DNA of 52,653 nt from a virus (UHGV-0083175); one strand, 5' to 3'. Positions 4,760 to 52,603 are shown, counted from the first letter of the stretch. The notes: generated by a model not told the origin, from the letters alone. Translations and numbers: made by a program.

Positions 4760-4854
4760 AAACGGTTTGCGGGGAAAGAAGAGTTAAGTAGAATTGCTGC
4801 GGGTGCTTGAGGCTGTCTGCCTCGGGCATGCCGACGTAAGGCAGACAGAGAAAA

Positions 4855-4921
4855 GCCCCAGTTAACATTATGCGTCTTGCAGGACGCTTAACATTAATCT
4901 GAGGCCATATCTATGACTTGC
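4855..4921 (-). ncRNA. sok: Sok-like antisense RNA (predicted)
   Basis: Minus-strand promoter TTGCCT-N17-TAATCT (plus coordinates 4956-4928), antisense to the mok start region. The 3' end is only approximate. Confidence 0.45.
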
Positions 4922-5125
4922 ACACTTAGATTAGCCTCTTATGCGCCGAAAGGCAAGGAGCAGCAGGCTATGAAGCAGCAAAAGGCGATGCTAATCGCCC
5001 TGATCGTCATCTGTATTACCGTCGTTGTAACGGTACTGGTAACGAGGAAAGACCTCTGCGAGGTACGAATCCGAACCGGCCAGACGGAGGTCGCTGTCTT
5101 CACAGCTTACGAATCTGAGAAGTAA
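4913..5125 (+). CDS. mok: Mok-like overlapping reading frame (modulator of killing)
   Basis: 70-aa ORF in the same frame as hok and extending it at the 5' end, as in hok/mok/sok loci. Confidence 0.55.
   Translation: MTCTLRLASYAPKGKEQQAMKQQKAMLIALIVICITVVVTVLVTRKDLCEVRIRTGQTEVAVFTAYESEK
4970..5125 (+). CDS. hok: Hok/Gef family type I toxin
   Basis: MKQQKAMLIALIVICITVVVTVLVTRKDLCEVRIRTGQTEVAVFTAYESEK matches the recalled Hok/Gef family. Confidence 0.9.
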   Translation: MKQQKAMLIALIVICITVVVTVLVTRKDLCEVRIRTGQTEVAVFTAYESEK

Positions 5126-10235: not shown

Positions 10236-10310
10236 GGCCCTTTAGCTCAGTGGTGAGAGCGAGCGACTCATAATCGCCAGGTCGCTGGTTCAAATCCAGC
10301 AAGGCCACCA
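10236..10310 (+). tRNA. tRNA with anticodon CAT (Ile2/Met type), irregular acceptor stem
   Basis: Cloverleaf read by eye: TAGCTCAGTGGT D-arm, CTCATAA anticodon loop, GGTTCAAATCC T-arm, encoded CCA. The 3' acceptor strand is AAGGCC against a 5' strand of GGCCCTT. Confidence 0.7.
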
Positions 10311-10319
10311 TATCACATA

Positions 10320-10396
10320 CCGCCATTAGCTCATCGGGATAGAGCGCCAGCCTTCGAAGCTGGCTGCGCGGGGTTCGAGTCCTCGATGGCGGTCCA
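10320..10396 (+). tRNA. tRNA-Arg (anticodon TCG)
   Basis: Acceptor stem CCGCCAT/ATGGCGG, anticodon loop CTTCGAA, T-arm GGTTCGAGTCC, encoded CCA. Confidence 0.85.
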
Positions 10397-11103: not shown

Positions 11104-11238
11104 CAGGGGGAGAAGATTTTCTCCTGTCCTGATGATTTTGGGGCGCTGGAAAGATATTGTGCTGTGAAGTGTTAAATCCCTCACAATTCAGTAAGTTGAC
11201 AGTTGCCTGTCAGACTGAGCATTTGTTAAAAAAATTTC

Positions 11239-11416
11239 GCATGGTGAATCCCCCTGTGCGGAGGGGCGACTGGTGAACGGTATGATCTCTTTGATGATCG
11301 TAAGCGAGAATACGCGGGTTTGGTGTCACCGGGCTGAACTCACCGGGAGGCACCCGGCACCATGCTCATGGTGATACAGAAATGCGGCTTCAGCCCCTCT
11401 CCGGAGGGGCTTTCTT
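11239..11416 (+). ncRNA. Structured RNA module, copy A (unknown family)
   Basis: Closing helix GCATGGTG/CACCATGC, internal hairpins CCCCCT..AGGGG and CCGGG-aggca-CCCGG, and terminator GCCCCTC-tccg-GAGGGGC followed by Ts. Confidence 0.5.
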
Positions 11417-11422
11417 ATGGAC

Positions 11423-12892: not shown

Positions 12893-13210
12893 AACATATC
12901 CTGTATATTTATGTTGTTACATACAGGCGCTTTTAGTATCTGCCGCACGGCAGTTGTACTTTAGAATAAGATGCTTTTGTGACTGGTGGTGTTGTATCTG
13001 GGGTTAGCCAGGAGGCAGGTTCAGAGAGTCCGGTGGTAATTATGTGTATGCAGTGGTTGTTGCTGTACCGTGGGCAAGTTCTGGAACTGGCTTCGTCCAT
13101 TGTAGATGATTGTTAGCTGGATATCAGTTACCTCATGGAAATGTTAAATGACTCACAATTCGGTTGATGGACTATTGTCTGATCGATGGAAGTCTTGTAA
13201 AAACGAGCCA

Positions 13211-13375
13211 GCATAGTGAATCCCCCTGTGCGGAGGGGCGTCTGACATGGTCTCCATAGCGATGGTCACAATACGCAGATTCAGTAGTCAGGCTGAATCT
13301 ACCGGGAGGCACCCGGCACTATGCTGCTTATGGTGTATACATAGCGATCGGCCCCTCTCCGGAGGGGCTTTTTTT
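13211..13375 (+). ncRNA. Structured RNA module, copy B
   Basis: Closing helix GCATAGTG/CACTATGC, a compensatory change relative to copy A. It has the same hairpins and terminator. Confidence 0.5.
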
Positions 13376-13469
13376 GTGCGGGAAAAGGCTGTGTTGTTAA
13401 GTGTTAAATTCCTCACAGTTCAGATGGTTGATGCTTGCCTGTCTGAGGGGGAGTTGTTAAAAAAGTTCT

Positions 13470-13634
13470 GCATGGTGAATCCCCCTGAGCGGAGGGGCAT
13501 ATCAGCGCAGGTGTTTCTACTCTATCCTTTCTGTGCGGGTTCAGGTGCTGATACTGAACTCACCGGGAGGCACCCGGCATCATGCATATGGTTAACAGAC
13601 ACGTAGCGAAGCCCCTCTCCGGAGGGGCTTTTTT
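13470..13634 (+). ncRNA. Structured RNA module, copy C
   Basis: Closing helix GCATGGTG/CATCATGC (one G-U pair), variable hairpin TATCAGC/GCTGATA, same terminator. Confidence 0.5.
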
Positions 13635-13729
13635 ATGCAGGGAAAAGGCTGTGTTGTGAAATGTTAAATTCCTCACAATTCATGAGGTTGATGATTGTCT
13701 GATTGATGAGGAGTTTGTTAAAAAAAACG

Positions 13730-13883
13730 GCATGGTGAATCCCCCTGTGCGGAGGGGTGATATCGTATCATTTCATGTGTGGCCGACTGATATCACGGAC
13801 ATTTGTTCACCGGGAGGCACCCGGCACCTGCAGTATACAGAGATTAGGCATACATCCAGGCTCCTCATCGCAGGAGCCTTTTT
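13730..13883 (+). ncRNA. Structured RNA module, copy D
   Basis: 5' GCATGGTG and 3' CACC-TGC (1-nt gap), variable hairpin GTGATATC/GATATCAC, and a different terminator GGCTCCT..AGGAGCC followed by T5. Confidence 0.45.
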
Positions 13884-13889
13884 ACATGT

Positions 13890-44525: not shown

Positions 44526-44859
44526 GATTAAGACCCTTCACTGGTGTCCCCGGGAAGGGATGCAGGTGACGGAGAAACCGTCGGTGGTGACGGTGAAGTT
44601 TGGCGACGGTTATCAGCAACGTCGTCCGGCAGGACTGAATGCGCAACTGAAGACCTTTCAGGTGGTTTTTCGGGTGACAACGGATGCTGAGCGGGAGGCA
44701 CTGTCCGCGTTTCTGTCATGGCATGGTGGTTACCGGGCTTTTTTGTGGAAGCCCCCGAAACATAACCGGACGGTCAGGGTGGTGTGCCGGGAGTGGAGTA
44801 TTACGGATAACGCCCGGTACAGTGATTTCAGTTGTACGATAGAGCAGGTAGTTGGATGA
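44518..44859 (+). CDS. M: Minor tail protein M
   Basis: Size, position and lambda gpM-like sequence (..VKFGDGYQQR...GLN.....). Confidence 0.8.
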   Translation: MDEIKTLHWCPREGMQVTEKPSVVTVKFGDGYQQRRPAGLNAQLKTFQVVFRVTTDAEREALSAFLSWHGGYRAFLWKPPKHNRTVRVVCREWSITDNARYSDFSCTIEQVVG

Positions 44860-44944
44860 GAATTATCCTATAAATCACTCTTTATTGTTTAGTTGTTAAT
44901 TATTTTTAATCTGTCTTGTCAGAAAGTGCGAAATCGATCTTGTA

Positions 44945-44964
44945 TTTACATTTTGTTACATAAT
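44945..44964 (+). promoter_or_regulatory. OmpR-box-like site upstream of the porin gene
   Basis: TTTACATTTTGTTACATAAT compared with the recalled ompC C1 box TTTACATTTTGAAACATCTA. A second ACATCTAAA element lies at about 45013. Confidence 0.4.
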
Positions 44965-45057
44965 ATAAATTGAACTAAGAATTTGTATTAAAATATTTTA
45001 ATTTTTGTTCATGACATCTAAATGCATGAATAGTTCAGTTTAAATAAGGATTAAATC

Positions 45058-46212
45058 ATGAAAAAAATGACAGTGGCACTTTCTGCTGTAGCAGTGGCAG
45101 TGATGTTTGCTGCGGGGGCGCAGGCAGCAGAAGTTTATAATAAAGATGGTAATAAACTGGATCTTTACGGGCGTGCAACCGCTCTGCATTACTTCTCGGA
45201 TGATAAAGGTAATGACGGAGACCAGACTTATGCTCGTCTCGGCTTTAAAGGCGAAACGCAGATTAATGATCAACTGACCGGATTTGGTCAGTGGGAATAC
45301 CAGTTCTCTGGTAACAAAACGGAATCTGAAGGTTCCGCGGGAAATAAAACCCGTCTGGCATTTGCAGGTCTGAGATTTGCAGATGTTGGTACCATTGATT
45401 ACGGACGTAACTATGGTATTGCTTACGATGTCGGATCATATACTGACGTACTGCCTGAGTTTGGTGGTGATGGCTGGACGCAGACCGATAACTTTATGAC
45501 GGCCCGAACTTCCGGTGTCCTGACTTACCGTAATACAGACTTCTTCGGACTGGTTGATGGTCTGAATTTTGCGGCGCAGTATCAGGGCAAAAATGAGCGT
45601 GATGACCTTCAGAAGGCTAATGGCGACGGGTATGGTTTCTCGGCCAGCTATGAGTTTGATGGTTTTGGTTTTGTCGCTGCGTATACCAAGTCAGATCGTA
45701 CTGATAAGCAGGTTCAGGGGTTGAATGGTACTGCAGATGTTCTTGATCCTGCATCAGGTAAAAAGGTTGGAGAAAAAGCAGTTGACTCAGGTAGTGTGGC
45801 AAAAGGTAAACATGCTGAATTCTGGGGAACTGGTCTTAAATATGATGCCAATAACCTGTATCTGGCAGCAGTGTATTCTGAAACCCAGAATATGACGACC
45901 TTTGGTGATCAAGGTGTTGCGGATAAAGCTCAGAATATCGAAGCCGTTGTTCAGTATCAGTTTGATTTTGGTCTGCGCCCGTCCCTTGCCTACCTTCAGT
46001 CCCGCGGACAGGATGTTATGGTTGGTGGTGTGAACCATGGCGATCAGGATCTGGTTAAATATATTGATGTCGGTGCGACTTATTACTTTAACAAGAATAT
46101 GTCCACCTATGTTGATTATAAAATTAACCTGATTGATGAAAGTGAATTTACCCGGAAAGCCGGTGTTGCGACAGATAATATCGTTGCTGTGGGTATGACT
46201 TATCAGTTCTGA
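45058..46212 (+). CDS. General (OmpC/OmpF/NmpC-family) porin, moron in the tail operon
   Basis: Signal peptide ..[20 protein letters not shown], then ..GFGQWEYQF.., ..DYGRNYG.., and C-terminal ..VAVGMTYQF. Confidence 0.9.
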
Positions 46213-47130: not shown

Positions 47131-47874
47131 ATGACACAGACTGAATCAGCGATTCTGGCGCATGCCCGGCGGTGTGCGCCAGCGGAGTCGTGCGGCTTCG
47201 TGATAAGCACCCCGGAGGGCGAACGGTACCAGCCCTGCGTGAATATCTCCGCAGAGCCGGAGGCGTATTTTCGTATTACACCGGAAGACTGGCTGCAGGC
47301 ACAGATGCAGGGGGAGATTGTGGCGCTGGTCCACAGTCATCCCGGTGGTCTGCCCTGGCTGAGCGAGGCGGACCGGCGGCTGCAGATAAAGAGTGCCCTG
47401 CCCTGGTGGCTGGTCTGCCGGGGTGAAATTCACCGGTTCCGCTGTGTGCCGCACCTGACCGGACGGCGCTTTGAACACGGTGTGACGGACTGTTACACCC
47501 TGTTCCGGGATGCATACCATCTGGCGGGGATAACGCTGCCGGATTTTGTGCGTGAGGATGACTGGTGGCGCAACGGCCAGAACCTGTACCTGGACAACCT
47601 GGCGGACAACGGCTTTTACCGGGTGTCTCCGTCCTGTGCACAGGCGGGCGATATCCTGCTGTGCTGCTTTGGCGCATCGGTGCCGAATCATGCCGCCATT
47701 TACTGTGGCAACGGTGAACTGCTTCACCATATACCTGAACAACTGAGTAAACGGGAGAGGTATTCTGAAAAATGGCAACGACGAACGCATTCTGTCTGGC
47801 GTCACCGCCACTGGTCCGCATCTGCCTTCACGGGGATTTACAACGATTTGGTCGCCGCATCAGCCTGTATGTGA
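47131..47874 (+). CDS. K: Tail tip assembly protein K (MPN/JAB + NlpC/P60)
   Basis: ..ESCGFV......Y.PC.N......F.I.P.... HSHP.. followed by an NlpC/P60-like C-terminus. Confidence 0.9.
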   Translation: MTQTESAILAHARRCAPAESCGFVISTPEGERYQPCVNISAEPEAYFRITPEDWLQAQMQGEIVALVHSHPGGLPWLSEADRRLQIKSALPWWLVCRGEIHRFRCVPHLTGRRFEHGVTDCYTLFRDAYHLAGITLPDFVREDDWWRNGQNLYLDNLADNGFYRVSPSCAQAGDILLCCFGASVPNHAAIYCGNGELLHHIPEQLSKRERYSEKWQRRTHSVWRHRHWSASAFTGIYNDLVAASACM

Positions 47875-48452
47875 ACACGGCAGCGGAGGCCATCCGTGCC
47901 CTGTCGCTGCAGGTGCCGGGATTCCGCGGTCAGATGAACGAAGGCTGGTATCAGATACGTATTGCCGGTGAGGATACCGCACCGGAGGCGGTGTACGCCC
48001 GTCTTCACGAACAACTGGGTGAGGGAGCGGTCATCCACATTGTGCCGCGACTGGCCGGAGCCGGGGGAAATGGTGTTTTTCAGGTGGTGCTGGGGGCAGC
48101 AGCCATCGTGGGCTCTTTCTTCACCGCCGGTGCAACGATGGCGTTGTGGGGCGCAGCCCTGAGTGCCGGAGGGCTGACTGCCACCACGATGCTGTTCTCA
48201 CTGGGTGCCAGCATGATACTGGGTGGTGTGGCTCAGATGCTGGCCCCGAAGGCAAAGACGCCGGAGTATAAAAGTACGGATAACGGTAAACAGAACACGT
48301 ATTTTTCGTCACTGGACAACATGATTGCCCAGGGTAACCCGATGCCGGTGCCTTACGGTGAAATGCTGGTTGGTTCACGACGGATATCCCAGGATATCAG
48401 CACCCGTGATGAGGGCGGAGACGGGAAAGTGGTGGTTATCGGGCGGGGATAA
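47772..48452 (+). CDS. I: Tail tip assembly protein I
   Basis: Near-collinear with recalled lambda gpI (..RICLHGDLQRFGRRI...GVFQVVLGAAAIVGSFFTAGAT..DNGKQNTYFSSLDNM). Confidence 0.9.
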   Translation: MATTNAFCLASPPLVRICLHGDLQRFGRRISLYVNTAAEAIRALSLQVPGFRGQMNEGWYQIRIAGEDTAPEAVYARLHEQLGEGAVIHIVPRLAGAGGNGVFQVVLGAAAIVGSFFTAGATMALWGAALSAGGLTATTMLFSLGASMILGGVAQMLAPKAKTPEYKSTDNGKQNTYFSSLDNMIAQGNPMPVPYGEMLVGSRRISQDISTRDEGGDGKVVVIGRG

Positions 48453-48456
48453 AAAT

Positions 48457-48550
48457 AAAAAAAATCCCGCAGAGTTAGCGGAGCTGCGGGAAATAACGAT
48501 GAAGATTAACGTTATGGAGTTATTTTTTTGGGCAGAAGAACAGTAACGCA
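48457..48550 (-). ncRNA. Candidate sRNA, I-J unit 1
   Basis: Minus-strand -10 AATAAT (plus coordinates 48556-48561). The body contains ACGTTAATCTTCATCG. Terminator TCCCGCAG..CTGCGGGA followed by T8. Confidence 0.4.
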
Positions 48551-48647
48551 GCGTCATTATTGCGGCTACAGGCAATTGCCGGAAGTGTGAATAAACTCAG
48601 AATTTTTATTCCGTTGTGGTGATGCCCGGGCTGGCCAGTGACGGGAT

Positions 48648-48745
48648 AAAAAAATCCCGCAGAGTCCGGAGACTGCGGGACAGAACCGATGAAGATTAAC
48701 GTTCAAGGAGTTTTGTTTTTATTGACCCGAAAAAACTGTAACGCC
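48648..48745 (-). ncRNA. Candidate sRNA, I-J unit 2
   Basis: Minus-strand -10 TATCAT (plus coordinates 48751-48756), the same ACGTTAATCTTCATCG core, and a TCCCGCAG..CTGCGGGA terminator followed by T7. Confidence 0.4.
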
Positions 48746-48881
48746 CCGGAATGATATCTGCCACGGGAACGTACAGAAAATGTGAAGAAATTCAGACTTT
48801 TTCTGTCGCAGGTTTACAGAACGGATGACCGCCAGGGTACCAGTGGCGTAAATGAGCAGGATGTTGTGGTGTGGCTGAAGC

Positions 48882-48985
48882 AAAAAAATCTCCCGTAATA
48901 TCGCCGGATACTGACGGGAGACGAATAGTCACCTTAAGGAGGTCTGATAATTATTGCTTTTATTGAGCAAAAAAACTGTAACGCT
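48882..48985 (-). ncRNA. Candidate sRNA, I-J unit 3
   Basis: Minus-strand -10 TATAAT (plus coordinates 48991-48996). The body contains ACCTCCTTAAGG. Terminator TCTCCCGT..ACGGGAGA followed by T7. Confidence 0.4.
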
Positions 48986-49056
48986 GCGTCATTATAGTGG
49001 CTACAGGCAATTGCCGGAAATGTGAAGAATTTCAGAAATTTTATTCCGTCATGACA

Positions 49057-49087
49057 CAGGCACCCTCCGGGGTGCCTGTCGTTTTCT
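49057..49087 (+). terminator. Hairpin terminator upstream of J
   Basis: CAGGCACC-ctccgg-GGTGCCTG followed by tcgttttct. Confidence 0.5.
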
Positions 49088-49129
49088 GGCATAAACAGAT
49101 TCAGACATCAGACAGGAGAGGGGGACAGA

Positions 49130-52100
49130 GTGGGTAAAGGGGGCGGCAAGGGGCACACACCGCGTGAGGCGAAGGACAATCTCAAATCCACGCAGATGAT
49201 GAGCGTGATTGATGCCATCGGTGAGGGACCGGTGGAAGGCCCGGTGAAGGGACTGCAGAGTATTCTGGTGAACAAAACCCCGCTGACGGACACGGACGGT
49301 AATCCCGTGATACACGGTGTGACCGCCGTCTGGCGTGCCGGGGAGCAGGAGCAGACACCGCCGGAAGGCTTTGAGTCCTCCGGGGCAGAAACCGCACTGG
49401 GCGTGGAGGTGACGAAGGCAAAGCCGGTGACGCGCACCATCACGTCAGCGAACATTGACCGTCTGCGGGTCACCTTCGGGGTGCAGTCACTGGTGGAGAC
49501 CACCTCAAAGGGTGACCGTAATCCCTCTTCTGTCCGGCTGCTGATTCAGCTTGAGCGTAACGGGCACTGGGTGACGGAGAAGGATATCACCATTAACGGC
49601 AAAACCACCTCGCAGTACCTGATGTCGGTGATTCTGAATAATCTCCCTGAGCGCCCCTTTAACATCCGGATGGTCAGGGAGACGGCGGACAGCACCACGG
49701 ACCAGCTGCAGAACAGAACGCTGTGGTCGTCATACACCGAAATCATCGATGTGAAACAGTGCTACCCGAACACGGCGATTGTGGGGCTGCAGGTGGATGC
49801 GGAGCAGTTTGGTGGCCAGCAGCTGACGGTGAACTACCATATCCGTGGTCGCATCATTCAGGTGCCGTCAAACTATGACCCGGAAAAACGCACCTACAGC
49901 GGTATCTGGGACGGCAGTCTGAAACCGGCATACAGCAATAACCCGGCCTGGTGCCTGTGGGACATGCTGACCCACCCGCGCTACGGCATGGGAAAACGCC
50001 TGGGGGCCGCGGATGTGGACAAGTGGGCACTGTATGCCATCGGGCAGTACTGCGACCAGACGGTCCCGGATGGTTTCGGGGGCACAGAGCCGCGGATGAC
50101 TTTCAATGCGTACCTGTCACAGCAGCGTAAGGTCTGGGATGTTCTGGGGGATTTCTGCTCGGCGATGCGCTGTATGCCGGTATGGAACGGCCAGACGCTG
50201 ACGTTCGTTCAGGACCGTCCGTCGGATGTGGTGTGGCCGTACACCAACAGCGATGTGGTGGTGGATGATAACGGCGTGGGGTTCCGCTACAGCTTCAGTG
50301 CCCTGAAGGACCGGCACACGGCGGTGGAGGTGAATTACACCGACCCGCAGAACGGCTGGCAGACTTCCACGGAACTGGTGGAAGACCCGGACGCCATCCT
50401 GCGCTACGGGCGCAATCTGCTGAAGATGGATGCGTTTGGCTGTACCAGCCGCGGTCAGGCCCACCGTGCCGGACTGTGGGTGATAAAGACAGAACTGCTG
50501 GAAACGCAGACGGTGGATTTCATGCTCGGGTCACAGGGGCTGCGGCACACGCCCGGTGACATCATTGAAATCTGTGATAACGACTACGCTGGGACCCTGA
50601 CCGGCGGACGTATCCTGTCCATGGATGCCGCCAGCCGTACCCTGACGCTGGACCGTGAGGTGACCCTGCCGGAGACAGGGACATCGACGGTGAACCTGAT
50701 TAACGGCAGCGGTAAGCCGGTGCGCGTGGACATCACCGCACACCCCGCCCCGGACCGGATACAGGTCAGCGTCCTGCCGGATGGCGTGGAGACATACGGT
50801 GTGTGGGGACTCTCCCTGCCGTCACTGCGTCGTCGCCTGTTCCGCTGTGTTTCCATCCGGGAAAACACGGACGGCACCTTTGCCATCACGGCGGTGCAGC
50901 ATGTGCCGGAAAAAGAAGCCATCGTGGATAACGGGGCCACCTTTGAGCCGCTCTCCGGTTCACTGAACAGCGTCATCCCGCCGGCTGTGCAGCACCTCAC
51001 GGTGGAGGTGAGTGCCTCAGACGGCCAGTATCTGGCGCTGGCGAAATGGGACACGCCGCGGGTGGTGAAGGGCGTGCGCTTCAGTCTGCGCCTGACCAGT
51101 GGCAGTGGTGAAAACAGCCGCCTGGTGACCAGCGCTATCACTGCCGACACGGAGCACCGTTTCAGTGGCCTGCCGCCCGGGGAATACACCCTGACGGTCA
51201 GGGCGATAAACAGCTACGGCCAGCAGGGCGAACCTGCCACCACCACGTTCCGGATTAACGCACCGGCAGCACCGGCCAGCATTGAACTGACGCCGGGGTA
51301 TTATCAGATAACGGCGGTCCCGCATCTTACGGTGTATGACCCGACGGTACAATTTGAATTCTGGTTTTCGGAGGCAAAAATCGCAGACACATCTCAGGTG
51401 GAAACCTCTGCCCGTTATCTGGGGACAGGCAGCCAGTGGAGTGTCTCCGGCCCGCACATTAAGCCGGGGAAGGATTTCTGGTTTTATGTGCGCAGCGTCA
51501 ACCTGGTGGGGAAATCTGCGTTTGTGGAAGCCAGTGGCCGGGCCAGCAATGATGCAGAAGGGTATCTGGGGCTGTTTCGGGAAAAGATAGGAAAACTGCA
51601 TCTGGCACAGGGGATGTGGGAGCTGATTGATAACAGCCAGCTTGATGATGAGATGGCGGAGATGAAGACCACCATCACCGAAACCCGCAATGAAATCACG
51701 CAGACGGTCAGTAAAACCCTGGAAGACCAGAGTGCCACCATACAGCAGATACAGCGGGTGCAGACAGGCACAAATCACGACCTGGCTGCGCTGTACATGC
51801 TGAAGGTGCAGAAAACGAAAAACGGCATTCCGTATGTTGCCGGTATTGGTGCGGGGATTGAGGATGCTGATGGCCAGCCCCTGAGCAATATTCTGCTGCA
51901 GGCGGACCGTATCGCGATGATTAACCCGGAGAACGGCAACACCACGCCGCTGTTTGTGGCGCAGGGGAATCAGCTGTTCATGAACGATGTGTTCCTGAAG
52001 CGACTGTTTGCAGTGAGCATCACCTCGTCCGGCAATCCCCCGACGTTCTCCCTGACGCCGGAGGGCAGGCTGACGGCCCGCAATGCGGACATCAGCGGAC

Positions 52101-52603
52101 ATATCAGTGCGAACTCGGGCACGCTCAATAATGTGACCATTAACCAGAACTGCCGGATACTTGGAAAACTGTCTGCCAACCAGATTGAAGGCGATATTGT
52201 TAAAACCGTGGGGAAGGCTTTCCCGCGGGACTCCCGCGCACCGGAGCGGTGGCCATCGGGGACCATTACCGTCAGGATTTATGACGATCAGCCTTTTGAC
52301 CGGCAAATTGTGATCCCGGCAGTGGCTTTCAGCGGCGCTAAACATGAGAGAGAGCATAACGATATTTATTCATCATGCCGGCTGATGGTGAAATGTAACG
52401 GCAGGGTGCTTTTTGAAAGGACGGCGCTGGCTGAGTCTCAGGTGTATTCAGGGGTGATTGATATGCCTGCAGGAAGGGGGCATATGACGCTGGAGTTTTC
52501 TGTGTCTGCCTGGCTGGTGAATGGATGGTACCCGACAGCGAGTATCAGCGATCTGCTGGTTGTCGTGATGAAGAAGTCCACGGCGGGTATCAGTATTTCG
52601 TGA
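49130..52603 (+). CDS. J: Host specificity / central tail fibre protein J
   Basis: GTG start. [22 protein letters not shown]... and long blocks collinear with recalled lambda J; 1157 aa. Confidence 0.95.

What the first reader, a model, noticed from the sequence alone, without database searches (positions are those of the whole stretch)
48455..49090. Three tandem ~190-235-bp units between tail genes I and J, each looking like a minus-strand sRNA gene
In lambda, I and J abut; here 680 bp intervene. Read on the minus strand, each of the three units has:
- a -10-like hexamer (AATAAT, TATCAT, TATAAT) at the same distance from a conserved GCGTTAC(A/T)G;
- a ~95-105-nt body;
- a perfect GC hairpin followed by 7-8 U. 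The stem is TCCCGCAG/CTGCGGGA in units 1 and 2, and a covarying TCTCCCGT/ACGGGAGA in unit 3.

Units 1 and 2 share ACGUUAAUCUUCAUCG. Unit 3 instead carries ACCUCCUUAAGG, identical to the anti-Shine-Dalgarno end of 16S rRNA, which suggests pairing to ribosome-binding sites. Upstream of each putative promoter is a conserved hairpin with loop TGTGAAGAAATTCAGA whose stem also covaries (AGAAAA/TTTTCT versus CGGAA/TTCCG).

Short plus-strand ORFs (MKINV...) are present in units 1 and 2 only, so a type I toxin-antitoxin arrangement cannot be excluded. The -35 regions are weak.
Basis: seen in the sequence. Interest (0 to 1): 0.62.

Follow-up and report, generated by a model that had tools for sequence, protein, structure and literature searches.

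The report
Tandem prophage sRNA genes (PasB/EcOnc22 family)
The 677-bp gap between tail genes I and J holds three tandem, diverged copies of a prophage small-RNA gene already validated in pathogenic E. coli (EcOnc22-24 in EHEC, PasB in EPEC); the gene family is known, but arrays of 2-4 copies with different pairing regions appear undescribed.

Summary
Window 48453-49129, between I and J, carries three minus-strand units spaced 195 and 240 bp apart. Each has a -10 hexamer, a conserved GCGTTAC, a 93-103-nt body and a GC hairpin followed by 7-8 U.

The sRNA reading is correct, but the family is known. Units 1 and 2 are homologues of EcOnc22/23/24 (EHEC Sakai; about 85 nt; destabilised without Hfq) and of PasB (EPEC E2348/69; 83 nt; Hfq-dependent; 37 RIL-seq partners). 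Both lie antisense in the same I-J gap. The two Pas papers I read do not mention EcOnc22-24.

Unit 3 is a diverged paralogue. Its ACCUCCUUA identity to the 16S 3' end is real but not conserved among its relatives.

The "covarying upstream hairpin" is better read as an invariant CRP-like site, TGTGA-N6-TCAGA, at a fixed distance from the -10. The MKINV ORF is not conserved, so a type I toxin-antitoxin is not supported.

Possibly new:
- The slot holds arrays of 1-4 cassettes with at least three kinds of pairing region.
- The window's 3-unit array is in 16 of 5426 complete E. coli genomes, and a 4-unit array is in 67.
- The CRP-like site has not been reported.

Function and targets remain unknown. 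Interest is moderate.

The parts
47772..48452 (+). Tail assembly gene I (left flank of the slot)
   Evidence: 226-aa ORF. RefSeq annotates a tail assembly protein here, from a later start codon. Relatives with at least 90% identity always carry at least one sRNA unit just downstream.
48457..48549 (-). Unit 1 sRNA gene, EcOnc22-like, 93 nt from the predicted start at G48549 to the end of the U run
   Evidence: nhmmer 157 bits. 88% identical to Sakai EcOnc22 and 79% to PasB. Fold z-score -2.7.
48465..48491 (-). Unit 1 terminator hairpin UCCCGCAG/CUGCGGGA, followed by 8 U (48457-48464)
48499..48510 (-). Unit 1 candidate pairing region GUUAAUCUUCAU
   Evidence: AAUCUU is near-invariant across the family. 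Predicted unpaired probability 0.96.
48556..48561 (-). Unit 1 -10 hexamer AATAAT
48586..48601 (.). Unit 1 CRP-like site TGTGAATAAACTCAGA
48613..48647 (.). Spacer between units 2 and 1. It repeats GGGATAAAAA, the last bases of gene I, so it may be a remnant of an I 3' end
   Evidence: family D8: 48446 and 48643. The remnant reading is inference.
48648..48744 (-). Unit 2 sRNA gene, 97 nt, with the same pairing region as unit 1 and a different 5' half
   Evidence: nhmmer 146.5 bits. 83% identical to PasB and 82% to unit 1.
48655..48680 (-). Unit 2 terminator hairpin, followed by 7 U (48648-48654)
48751..48756 (-). Unit 2 -10 hexamer TATCAT
48781..48796 (.). Unit 2 CRP-like site TGTGAAGAAATTCAGA
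48811..48881 (.). Spacer between units 3 and 2. Its minus strand carries CACAACA downstream of the unit 3 terminator
   Evidence: The same spacer is found only in other arrays.
48882..48984 (-). Unit 3 sRNA gene, a diverged paralogue of 103 nt
   Evidence: nhmmer 137.9 bits. 66-75% identical to the other units, PasB and EcOnc22. Fold z-score -3.0. This type is present in 110 of 5426 genomes.
48889..48921 (-). Unit 3 terminator, a 15-bp hairpin (UCUCCCGU.../...ACGGGAGA), followed by 7 U (48882-48888)
48921..48943 (-). Unit 3 candidate pairing region ACCUCCUUAAGGUGACUAUUCGU. ACCUCCUUA equals the 16S 3' end; UUAAGGUGACUAUUCGU is the part conserved among unit-3-type copies
48991..48996 (-). Unit 3 -10 hexamer TATAAT
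49021..49036 (.). Unit 3 CRP-like site TGTGAAGAATTTCAGA
49056..49089 (+). Plus-strand terminator-like hairpin ACAGGCACCC/GGGTGCCTGT followed by CGTTTTCTGG, between the sRNA promoters and the J ribosome-binding site
   Evidence: Also present in E2348/69 and Sakai.
49130..52603 (+). Tail tip / host specificity gene J (right flank of the slot)

Best explanation
The I-J gap of this lambdoid prophage holds an array of three independent genes for Hfq-dependent, trans-acting small RNAs of one family. That family was described in EHEC as EcOnc22/23/24 and in EPEC as PasB. The prophage sits at the ompW site of E. coli 2013C-3033.

Shown by sequence and homology:
- Each cassette has its own upstream dyad, its own -10 element and its own Rho-independent terminator.
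- Each is transcribed against the tail operon and ends about 5 nt from the stop codon of I.

Inferred:
- In lysogens each cassette makes an RNA of about 80-100 nt whose U tail and terminator bind Hfq.
- The single-stranded stretch just upstream of the terminator pairs with mRNAs. That stretch is UUAAUCUUCAU in units 1 and 2, and CCUCCUUAAGGUGACUAUUCGU in unit 3.
- Units 1 and 2 therefore add dosage and 5'-end variation for one specificity, and unit 3 adds a second specificity.
- Transcription is probably controlled by CRP-cAMP through the invariant TGTGA-N6-TCAGA site, so the RNAs would rise when glucose is exhausted.
- Arrays arise by recombination that stacks cassettes from different prophages into the same moron slot.
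For: Identity with validated sRNAs:
- PasB maps to the E2348/69 I-J gap on the antisense strand. Its northern probe AATCCCGCAGTGATCGCGGAGCT matches the unit 1 terminator at 19 of 23 positions.
- EcOnc22/23/24 are about 85 nt and destabilised in a hfq deletion. The core of the probe, GGGAGAGAACGATGAAGATTAAC, lies in the Sakai I-J spacer.
- Body identities are 79-88% for units 1 and 2 to these RNAs, and 66-75% for unit 3.

Synteny:
- All 80 IMG/VR loci whose I protein is at least 90% identical carry at least one unit, always antisense and directly after I.
- Lambda-type, Shigella and Citrobacter loci, with I at most 70% identical, carry none.

Gene anatomy:
- Terminator hairpins are predicted in all three units.
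- Among unique units with a recognisable -10 region the hexamer is TATAAT (20), TATCAT (11), AATAAT (9) or GATAAT/GATAAA (2).
- The AAUCUU core is near-invariant and mostly predicted unpaired.

CRP-like site:
- TCTGA-N6-TCACA is invariant in 44 of 44 unique units that retain the upstream region.
- The adjacent 24-nt spacer has 19 versions and a mean column identity of 0.73.
- The distance to the -10 is fixed at 24 nt in 39 of 42 units.
- The site matches 9 of 10 core positions of the CRP consensus TGTGA-N6-TCACA (established knowledge).
- PasB is higher in overnight static LB than in DMEM.

Arrays are real and recurrent:
- 2-, 3- and 4-unit arrays occur in IMG/VR contigs.
- The window's 3-unit array is in 16 of 5426 complete E. 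coli genomes, and a 4-unit array is in 67.
- At least three archetypes of pairing region exist.
Against: - There are no expression data for this strain or for any unit-3-type copy. Unit 3 could be silent.
- The transcription start is unresolved. The TATAAT-type -10 predicts RNAs of 93-103 nt, whereas the measured sizes are 83 and about 85 nt. The reported PasB 5' end (1466343) lies 22 nt past the -10. That fits a second TAnnnT element inside GCGTTACAGT, or 5' processing.
- The CRP-like site would be centred near -44.5 from the first start and near -60.5 from the second. Neither is the canonical -41.5 or -61.5.
- One half-site is imperfect (TCAGA). The LB-versus-DMEM difference is confounded by growth phase.
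- No targets are known, and no target motif is on record for PasB.
- The simple sigma-70 scan finds no full promoter, because the -35 regions are weak.
- RNAalifold gave no usable consensus structure and there is essentially no covariation.
Confidence: 0.8

Rival explanations
1. The units act mainly in cis on the phage itself. They would be antisense RNAs or convergent promoters that interfere with, or direct cleavage of, the late tail mRNA between I and J. Conversely, that abundant late mRNA could mop up the sRNAs on induction. Any trans targets would be secondary.
For: - Every unit is fully complementary to the I-J part of the late transcript and always lies antisense to it.
- A plus-strand terminator-like hairpin sits just before J.
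- The slot can also hold an antisense protein-coding insert, sodC in Citrobacter, so antisense transcription is tolerated there.
Against: - Homologues are abundant Hfq-bound RNAs in uninduced lysogens, with 37 partners elsewhere in the genome.
- The units overlap no coding sequence or ribosome-binding site of I or J.
- Diversification of the pairing region makes little sense for a purely cis antisense role.
Confidence: 0.12
2. Only one unit is a working gene. The others are decaying leftovers of recombination between prophages and have no function.
For: - The spacers look like remnants of I 3' ends (family D8; inference).
- Some unit-3-type copies lack the -10 and GCGTTAC (L040b and L042b).
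- One group of single units has lost the promoter region altogether (U45-U49).
- One array is cut by an IS66 element.
Against: - In the window all three units keep an intact CRP-like site, -10, GCGTTAC, hairpin and U run.
- The same 3-unit and 4-unit arrays are kept at 95-100% identity in 16 and 67 genomes from different sources.
Confidence: 0.1
3. It is a type I toxin-antitoxin or small-protein locus. The plus-strand MKINV peptides would be the product and the minus-strand RNAs their antitoxins.
For: - ATG AAG ATT AAC GTT opens short ORFs in units 1 and 2.
- E2348/69 differs from these at three consecutive third-codon positions (ATC AAT GTG).
Against: - The ATG is present in only 23 of 50 unique units; it is ACG in 22 and ACA in 5.
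- Where present, the ORFs are 12-44 aa with unrelated tails and no transmembrane-like segment.
- No good ribosome-binding site precedes the ATG, and that region sits next to the hairpin.
- Unit 3 has no such ORF.
Confidence: 0.03
4. The units are copies of a dispersed repetitive element (REP/BIME/ERIC-like) with no gene function.
For: The sequences are repeated and contain palindromes.
Against: - No Rfam family matches, even at E up to 10.
- The profile hits only the I-J gap in the window and in about 150 loci.
- Homologues are expressed, Hfq-bound RNAs.
Confidence: 0.01

Closest known systems
EcOnc22 / EcOnc23 / EcOnc24 (EHEC O157:H7 Sakai prophages Sp15, Sp14, Sp11; Tree et al. 2014, PMC4104026)
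   Same: - Same slot between I and J, same antisense strand, same terminator stem CCCGCAG/CUGCGGG, and same pairing region GUUAAUCUUCAUCGUU.
- Unit 1 is 88% identical over the whole body.
   Different: - Sakai has a single copy per prophage; here there are three in tandem.
- Unit 2 has a different 5' half. Unit 3 has a different pairing region and terminator.
- The targets of EcOnc22 are still listed as unknown.
PasB (EPEC E2348/69 prophage PP6; Pearl Mizrahi et al. 2021, PMC8550237; survey by Zhu, Shabalina and Storz 2026, bioRxiv 10.64898/2026.05.13.724894)
   Same: - Same slot and strand, same CRP-like site and spacing, same GCGTTA element and same terminator stem.
- 79-83% identity to units 1 and 2.
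   Different: - The PasB pairing region reads AUUGAUCUUCAUUUG.
- The survey reports only a few nucleotide differences among PasB variants and usually one copy per genome. Its smallest distance between two copies is 28,355 bp, so it saw no tandem arrays.
- It does not mention EcOnc22-24, a promoter or CRP.
Tandem sibling sRNAs (OmrA/OmrB in E. coli, PrrF1/PrrF2 in Pseudomonas, Qrr1-4 in Vibrio)
   Same: Adjacent or multiple paralogous Hfq-dependent sRNA genes, each with its own promoter and terminator, sharing part of the sequence and diverging elsewhere. The Pas survey cites these examples; the rest is established knowledge.
   Different: - Those are core-genome loci with no sequence relation to this family.
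- Here the array is in a phage tail operon, varies from 1 to 4 cassettes between prophages, and the pairing region itself is what changes.
AgvB / AsxR anti-sRNAs of lambdoid prophages (Rfam RF02702, RF02703)
   Same: Prophage-encoded, Hfq-bound short RNAs from EHEC, with a conserved 3' part and a variable pairing part.
   Different: - They lie at the PR' moron site, not between I and J, and are 51-60 nt with an unrelated sequence.
- There is no Rfam hit in this region.
Protein-coding morons in the tail region (for example sodC)
   Same: In a Citrobacter prophage the same I-J gap (714 nt) holds a minus-strand sodC with its own terminator. The gap therefore behaves as an insertion slot transcribed against the tail operon.
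   Different: The cargo there is a protein gene, not an sRNA cassette.

Membership tests
EcOnc22-24 / PasB prophage sRNA family | Located in the gap between tail genes I and J, transcribed antisense to them | tested here: met
   All three units are on the minus strand at 48457-48984, between I (+) and J (+). PasB and EcOnc22 have the same arrangement.
EcOnc22-24 / PasB prophage sRNA family | Sequence homology to the validated members | tested here: met
   nhmmer scores of 157, 146.5 and 138 bits. Identity is 79-88% for units 1 and 2 and 66-75% for unit 3. Unit 3 is a member by promoter, 5' end and overall alignment, but not by pairing region.
EcOnc22-24 / PasB prophage sRNA family | Rho-independent terminator with a CCCGCAG/CUGCGGG stem and a U run | tested here: met
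   Units 1 and 2 match exactly. Unit 3 keeps the CCCG/CGGG core within a longer, remodelled hairpin.
EcOnc22-24 / PasB prophage sRNA family | Expressed as an RNA of about 83-85 nt that depends on Hfq | not testable with these tools
   Known only for the homologues. No data exist for this strain or for unit-3-type copies.
Hfq-dependent trans-acting sRNA | Accessible conserved pairing region and identified mRNA partners | tested here: inconclusive
   AAUCUU is near-invariant and predicted unpaired with probability 0.4-0.96. PasB has 37 RIL-seq partners, but I could not extract them, and no target motif is on record.
CRP-cAMP-dependent promoter | A match to TGTGA-N6-TCACA that is conserved beyond its surroundings | tested here: met
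   9 of 10 core positions match. The site is invariant in 44 of 44 unique units, while the neighbouring spacer has 19 versions. It occurs 3 times in the window against 0.09 expected.
CRP-cAMP-dependent promoter | Site centred at -41.5 (class II) or at -61.5 and helical repeats (class I) from the start | tested here: inconclusive
   The site is centred about -44.5 from the start predicted by the TATAAT-type -10. It is centred about -60.5 from the reported PasB 5' end or the alternative TAnnnT element. The start has not been mapped.
CRP-cAMP-dependent promoter | CRP binding and CRP-dependent expression | not testable with these tools
   The only hint is indirect: PasB is higher in overnight static LB than in DMEM.
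Type I toxin-antitoxin | A conserved small ORF opposite the sRNA | tested here: not met
   The start codon is missing in 27 of 50 unique units, and the ORFs are 12-44 aa with no shared frame.
Any Rfam 15 family (including AgvB, AsxR, STnc100, sok) | A covariance-model match at the gathering score | tested here: not met
   There is no match in 48300-49300. The best sub-threshold hits only recognise the generic terminator.

The most novel reading that the evidence does not exclude
The I-J gap of this phage lineage is a recombining cassette array for small RNAs. Prophages stack one to four self-contained cassettes, each made of a CRP-like site, a promoter, an sRNA and a terminator. The cassettes differ in pairing region; this window's unit 3 carries a copy of the 16S anti-Shine-Dalgarno end. 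Lysogens would thereby gain a tunable, glucose-sensitive set of regulators. On induction the highly expressed antisense tail mRNA would neutralise them all at once.
Probability: 0.2. Interest if true: 0.6.

Novelty: new variant of a known kind. Interest (0 to 1): 0.4.

Why it matters
It links two separately named sRNAs, EcOnc22-24 in EHEC and PasB in EPEC, into one widespread prophage family. About 800 of 5426 complete E. coli genomes match this region.

The family is more variable than the recent survey suggests. It forms tandem arrays of up to four cassettes with at least three kinds of pairing region. That is a natural example of how phage recombination creates and multiplies regulators in Shiga-toxin-producing and related strains.

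The conserved CRP-like site gives a testable regulatory input for RNAs whose function is still unknown. None of this is annotated in RefSeq.

Tried and rejected
- Rfam at the gathering score and at E up to 10 gave nothing specific.
- Tandem Repeats Finder missed the array.
- The simple promoter scan found no full sigma-70 match.
- RNAalifold on the 39-sequence alignment gave a meaningless 3-pair consensus. Unit-3-type rows are out of register and the terminator stem never varies, so I did not pursue covariation counts.
- I first suspected AgvB because CACAACA occurs in the spacers. AgvB lies at the PR' site and is unrelated.
- I tried to pull the PasB RIL-seq partner rows from Table S3 by phrase search and found nothing. 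Targets were therefore not analysed.
- I tried to place the EcOnc22 Hfq-CRAC peak on the current Sakai record, to choose between the two candidate starts. Probe positions bracket the old-to-new coordinate offset only to about +140 to +187. Requiring the peak to contain the probe core and to end by the U run narrows it to about +140 to +153. That puts the peak start 18-31 nt past the TATAAT-type start. It leans towards a downstream 5' end but is not decisive.
- blastn of the two spacers against all fetched loci found them only in other arrays, not at the end of any I gene. The 'I 3' remnant' reading rests on the GGGATAAAAA repeat and a weak peptide resemblance.
- The 17-mer search for the unit-3 core also hit three unrelated AT-rich phage contigs by chance (L135, L136, L142).

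Full report
**What is there.** Gene I ends at 48452 and J starts at 49130, so 677 bp lie between them. Lambda-type loci have 60 nt there. The repeat finder reports a three-copy family with 195- and 240-bp spacing and 64-86% identity. Tandem Repeats Finder misses it. Read on the minus strand, each unit has four parts in the same order:
- a TCTGA-N6-TCACA dyad;
- 24 nt further on, a -10 hexamer (AATAAT, TATCAT or TATAAT);
- 6 nt further, GCGTTAC(T/A)G;
- a body ending in a GC hairpin and 7-8 U.

The bodies are 93, 97 and 103 nt. The folds show the hairpins, with z-scores of -2.7, -1.6 and -3.0. The dyad occurs three times in the window against 0.09 expected.

**Where the window comes from.** It is a lambdoid prophage next to ompW in E. 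coli 2013C-3033 (NZ_CP027323.1), matching at 100%. RefSeq annotates nothing between I and J.

**Identity.** Rfam has no match, but the literature does.
- PasB was found by RIL-seq in EPEC E2348/69. It is listed at 1466343-1466261 on the minus strand, 83 nt, seen on northern blots, Hfq-dependent, with 37 partners (PMC8550237). That position is the I-J gap of prophage PP6, antisense to the tail genes. The PasB locus has the same dyad, the same spacing, TATAAT, GCGTTAG, AUCUUCAU and the same CCCGCAG/CUGCGGG terminator.
- In EHEC Sakai, Tree et al. (PMC4104026) list EcOnc22 (Sp15) with homologues EcOnc23 (Sp14) and EcOnc24 (Sp11). It is about 85 nt on northern blots and destabilised without Hfq. 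The core of their shared probe lies in the Sakai I-J spacer on the expected strand.

Body identities are unit 1 to EcOnc22 88%, unit 1 to PasB 79%, unit 2 to PasB 83%, PasB to EcOnc22 76%, and unit 3 to the others 66-75%. The units are therefore members of a validated sRNA family. Neither Pas paper mentions EcOnc22-24 (PasB's row in Table S6 lists no EHEC homologue). A 2021 review lists EcOnc22's target as unknown.

**Distribution.** A profile built from the three units plus PasB and EcOnc22 was run on I-containing loci.
- All 80 IMG/VR loci whose I protein is at least 90% identical have at least one unit, always antisense and directly after I.
- Lambda-type, Shigella, E. ruysiae and Citrobacter loci, with I at most 70% identical, have none.
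- About 790-800 of 5426 complete E. coli genomes match the region by megablast.

**Arrays.** Most prophages have one unit. The window's three-unit array is present at 95-100% identity in 16 complete genomes, and in one further strain it is truncated by IS66. A search for the unit-3 core in IMG/VR found 2-, 3- and 4-unit arrays. The 4-unit array is in 67 complete genomes. In it the unit-3-type cassette is not next to J, and a further cassette has a third kind of pairing region, GGUUAGUCAACAUCGU. The PasB survey reports a minimum distance of 28,355 bp between two copies and only a few nucleotide differences among variants. It therefore did not see arrays or this diversity, probably because its main search used a 28-nt word. 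In a Citrobacter prophage the same gap holds a minus-strand sodC, so the gap behaves as a moron slot.

**Promoter region.** It is present in 44 of 44 unique units that retain the upstream region. The 24 nt between it and the -10 exist in 19 versions, with a mean column identity of 0.73, and the distance is 24 nt in 39 of 42 units. It matches 9 of 10 core positions of the CRP consensus, with A/T-rich flanks whose own symmetry accounts for the apparent stem. I read it as a CRP-like site; that is inference.

The geometry is ambiguous. The site is centred about -44.5 from the start predicted by the TATAAT-type -10. It is centred about -60.5 from the reported PasB 5' end, which coincides with a second TAnnnT element inside the conserved GCGTTACAGT. 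The measured sizes (83 and about 85 nt) and the bracketed position of the Sakai CRAC peak lean towards a 5' end about 15 nt downstream of the first prediction. That could come from a second promoter or from processing. PasB is higher in overnight static LB than in DMEM. This agrees with CRP control but also with growth phase.

**Pairing regions.** AAUCUU and the upstream CU-rich ACUCCUU are the most conserved body elements. UUAAUCUUCAU is predicted mostly unpaired, in line with the survey's proposal that the PasB seed lies just upstream of the terminator. Unit 3 instead carries ACCUCCUUAAGGUGACUAUUCGU. Its ACCUCCUUA equals the 16S 3' end, but relatives read AACUCCUUAAGG, ACUACUCCUUAAGG or AACUCAUUAAGG. 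The conserved part is therefore UUAAGGUGACUAUUCGU, and the perfect anti-Shine-Dalgarno copy is a feature of this variant only. By BLAST, 21 genomes match this variant at 95% or more and 88 at 80-90%.

**Small ORF.** Compared with E2348/69, the MKINV codons differ at three consecutive third positions. That looked like coding constraint. Across 50 unique units, however, the ATG is present in 23, ACG in 22 and ACA in 5. Where an ORF exists it is 12-44 aa with an unrelated tail. The plus-strand Shine-Dalgarno opposite unit 3 is likewise not conserved. A toxin-antitoxin or peptide reading is not supported.

**Structure evidence.** The terminator stem is essentially invariant outside unit-3-type copies, although the loops vary. 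Unit 3 differs by one compensatory pair and a longer stem. A more diverged copy (L124) shows a one-sided G-C to G-U change. There is no meaningful covariation test. The case rests on homology to validated RNAs, not on covariation.

**Verdict.** The finding is real and the sRNA interpretation is right, but the gene family has been known since 2014 and 2021. What the analysis adds:
- EcOnc22-24 and PasB appear to be the same family.
- The I-J slot holds arrays of 1-4 cassettes with diversified pairing regions.
- There is a candidate CRP input.

Targets, function and the true 5' ends remain open.

Noticed in passing
window 11210-11422, 13182-13377, 13441-13640, 13702-13889 (+): Four STnc100 (RF02076) copies at 119-172 bits, three of them in tandem. 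The Pas survey relates STnc100 to PasD. This prophage therefore carries a second tandem sRNA array at another site.
   Followed up: no
window 49056-49089 (+): A 10-bp GC-rich hairpin followed by CGTTTTCTGG on the plus strand, just upstream of the J ribosome-binding site. It looks like an intrinsic terminator inside the tail operon. It is conserved, with changes, in E2348/69 and Sakai. It might block unprogrammed transcription into J in lysogens.
   Followed up: partly
window about 48853-48859 and 48619-48625 (-): The spacers after the unit 3 and unit 2 terminators carry CACAACA and CACAACG on the minus strand. CACAACA is the GcvB R1 target consensus quoted for AgvB. They would be transcribed only by read-through. 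They probably derive from Val-Val-Val codons of an I 3' end.
   Followed up: no
L027 3149-3862 (Citrobacter meridianamericanus prophage): The I-J gap is 714 nt and holds a minus-strand Cu/Zn superoxide dismutase (sodC-like, 176 aa) with its own terminator. This shows the gap is a general insertion slot.
   Followed up: partly
L138 12391-12549 (-), and the same cassette in nine other IMG/VR loci: A cassette in 4-unit arrays has a third kind of pairing region (CGCCAACAGGUUAGUCAACAUCGUU) and a poorer -10 region (GAGTGCAT). It has not been described.
   Followed up: partly
window about 44800-45960 (RefSeq NZ_CP027323.1 1840192-1841346): A porin gene annotated as ompC sits between the tail genes, another moron in the tail region.
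   Followed up: no
window 4801-4975 (+) and about 10236-10393 (+): A sok antitoxin RNA lies next to an annotated hokD. Rfam calls two tRNAs just upstream of the STnc100 copies; RefSeq lists Ile, Arg, Arg.
   Followed up: no
L038, L055, L059, L063, L072, L073, L076, L081-L084, L086, L117 (units U45-U49): In a group of single-unit prophages the sRNA body and terminator are kept, but the CRP-like site and the TATAAT-type -10 are replaced by unrelated sequence. GAGTTAATG remains. These copies are either silent or rely on the downstream TAnnnT element.
   Followed up: no
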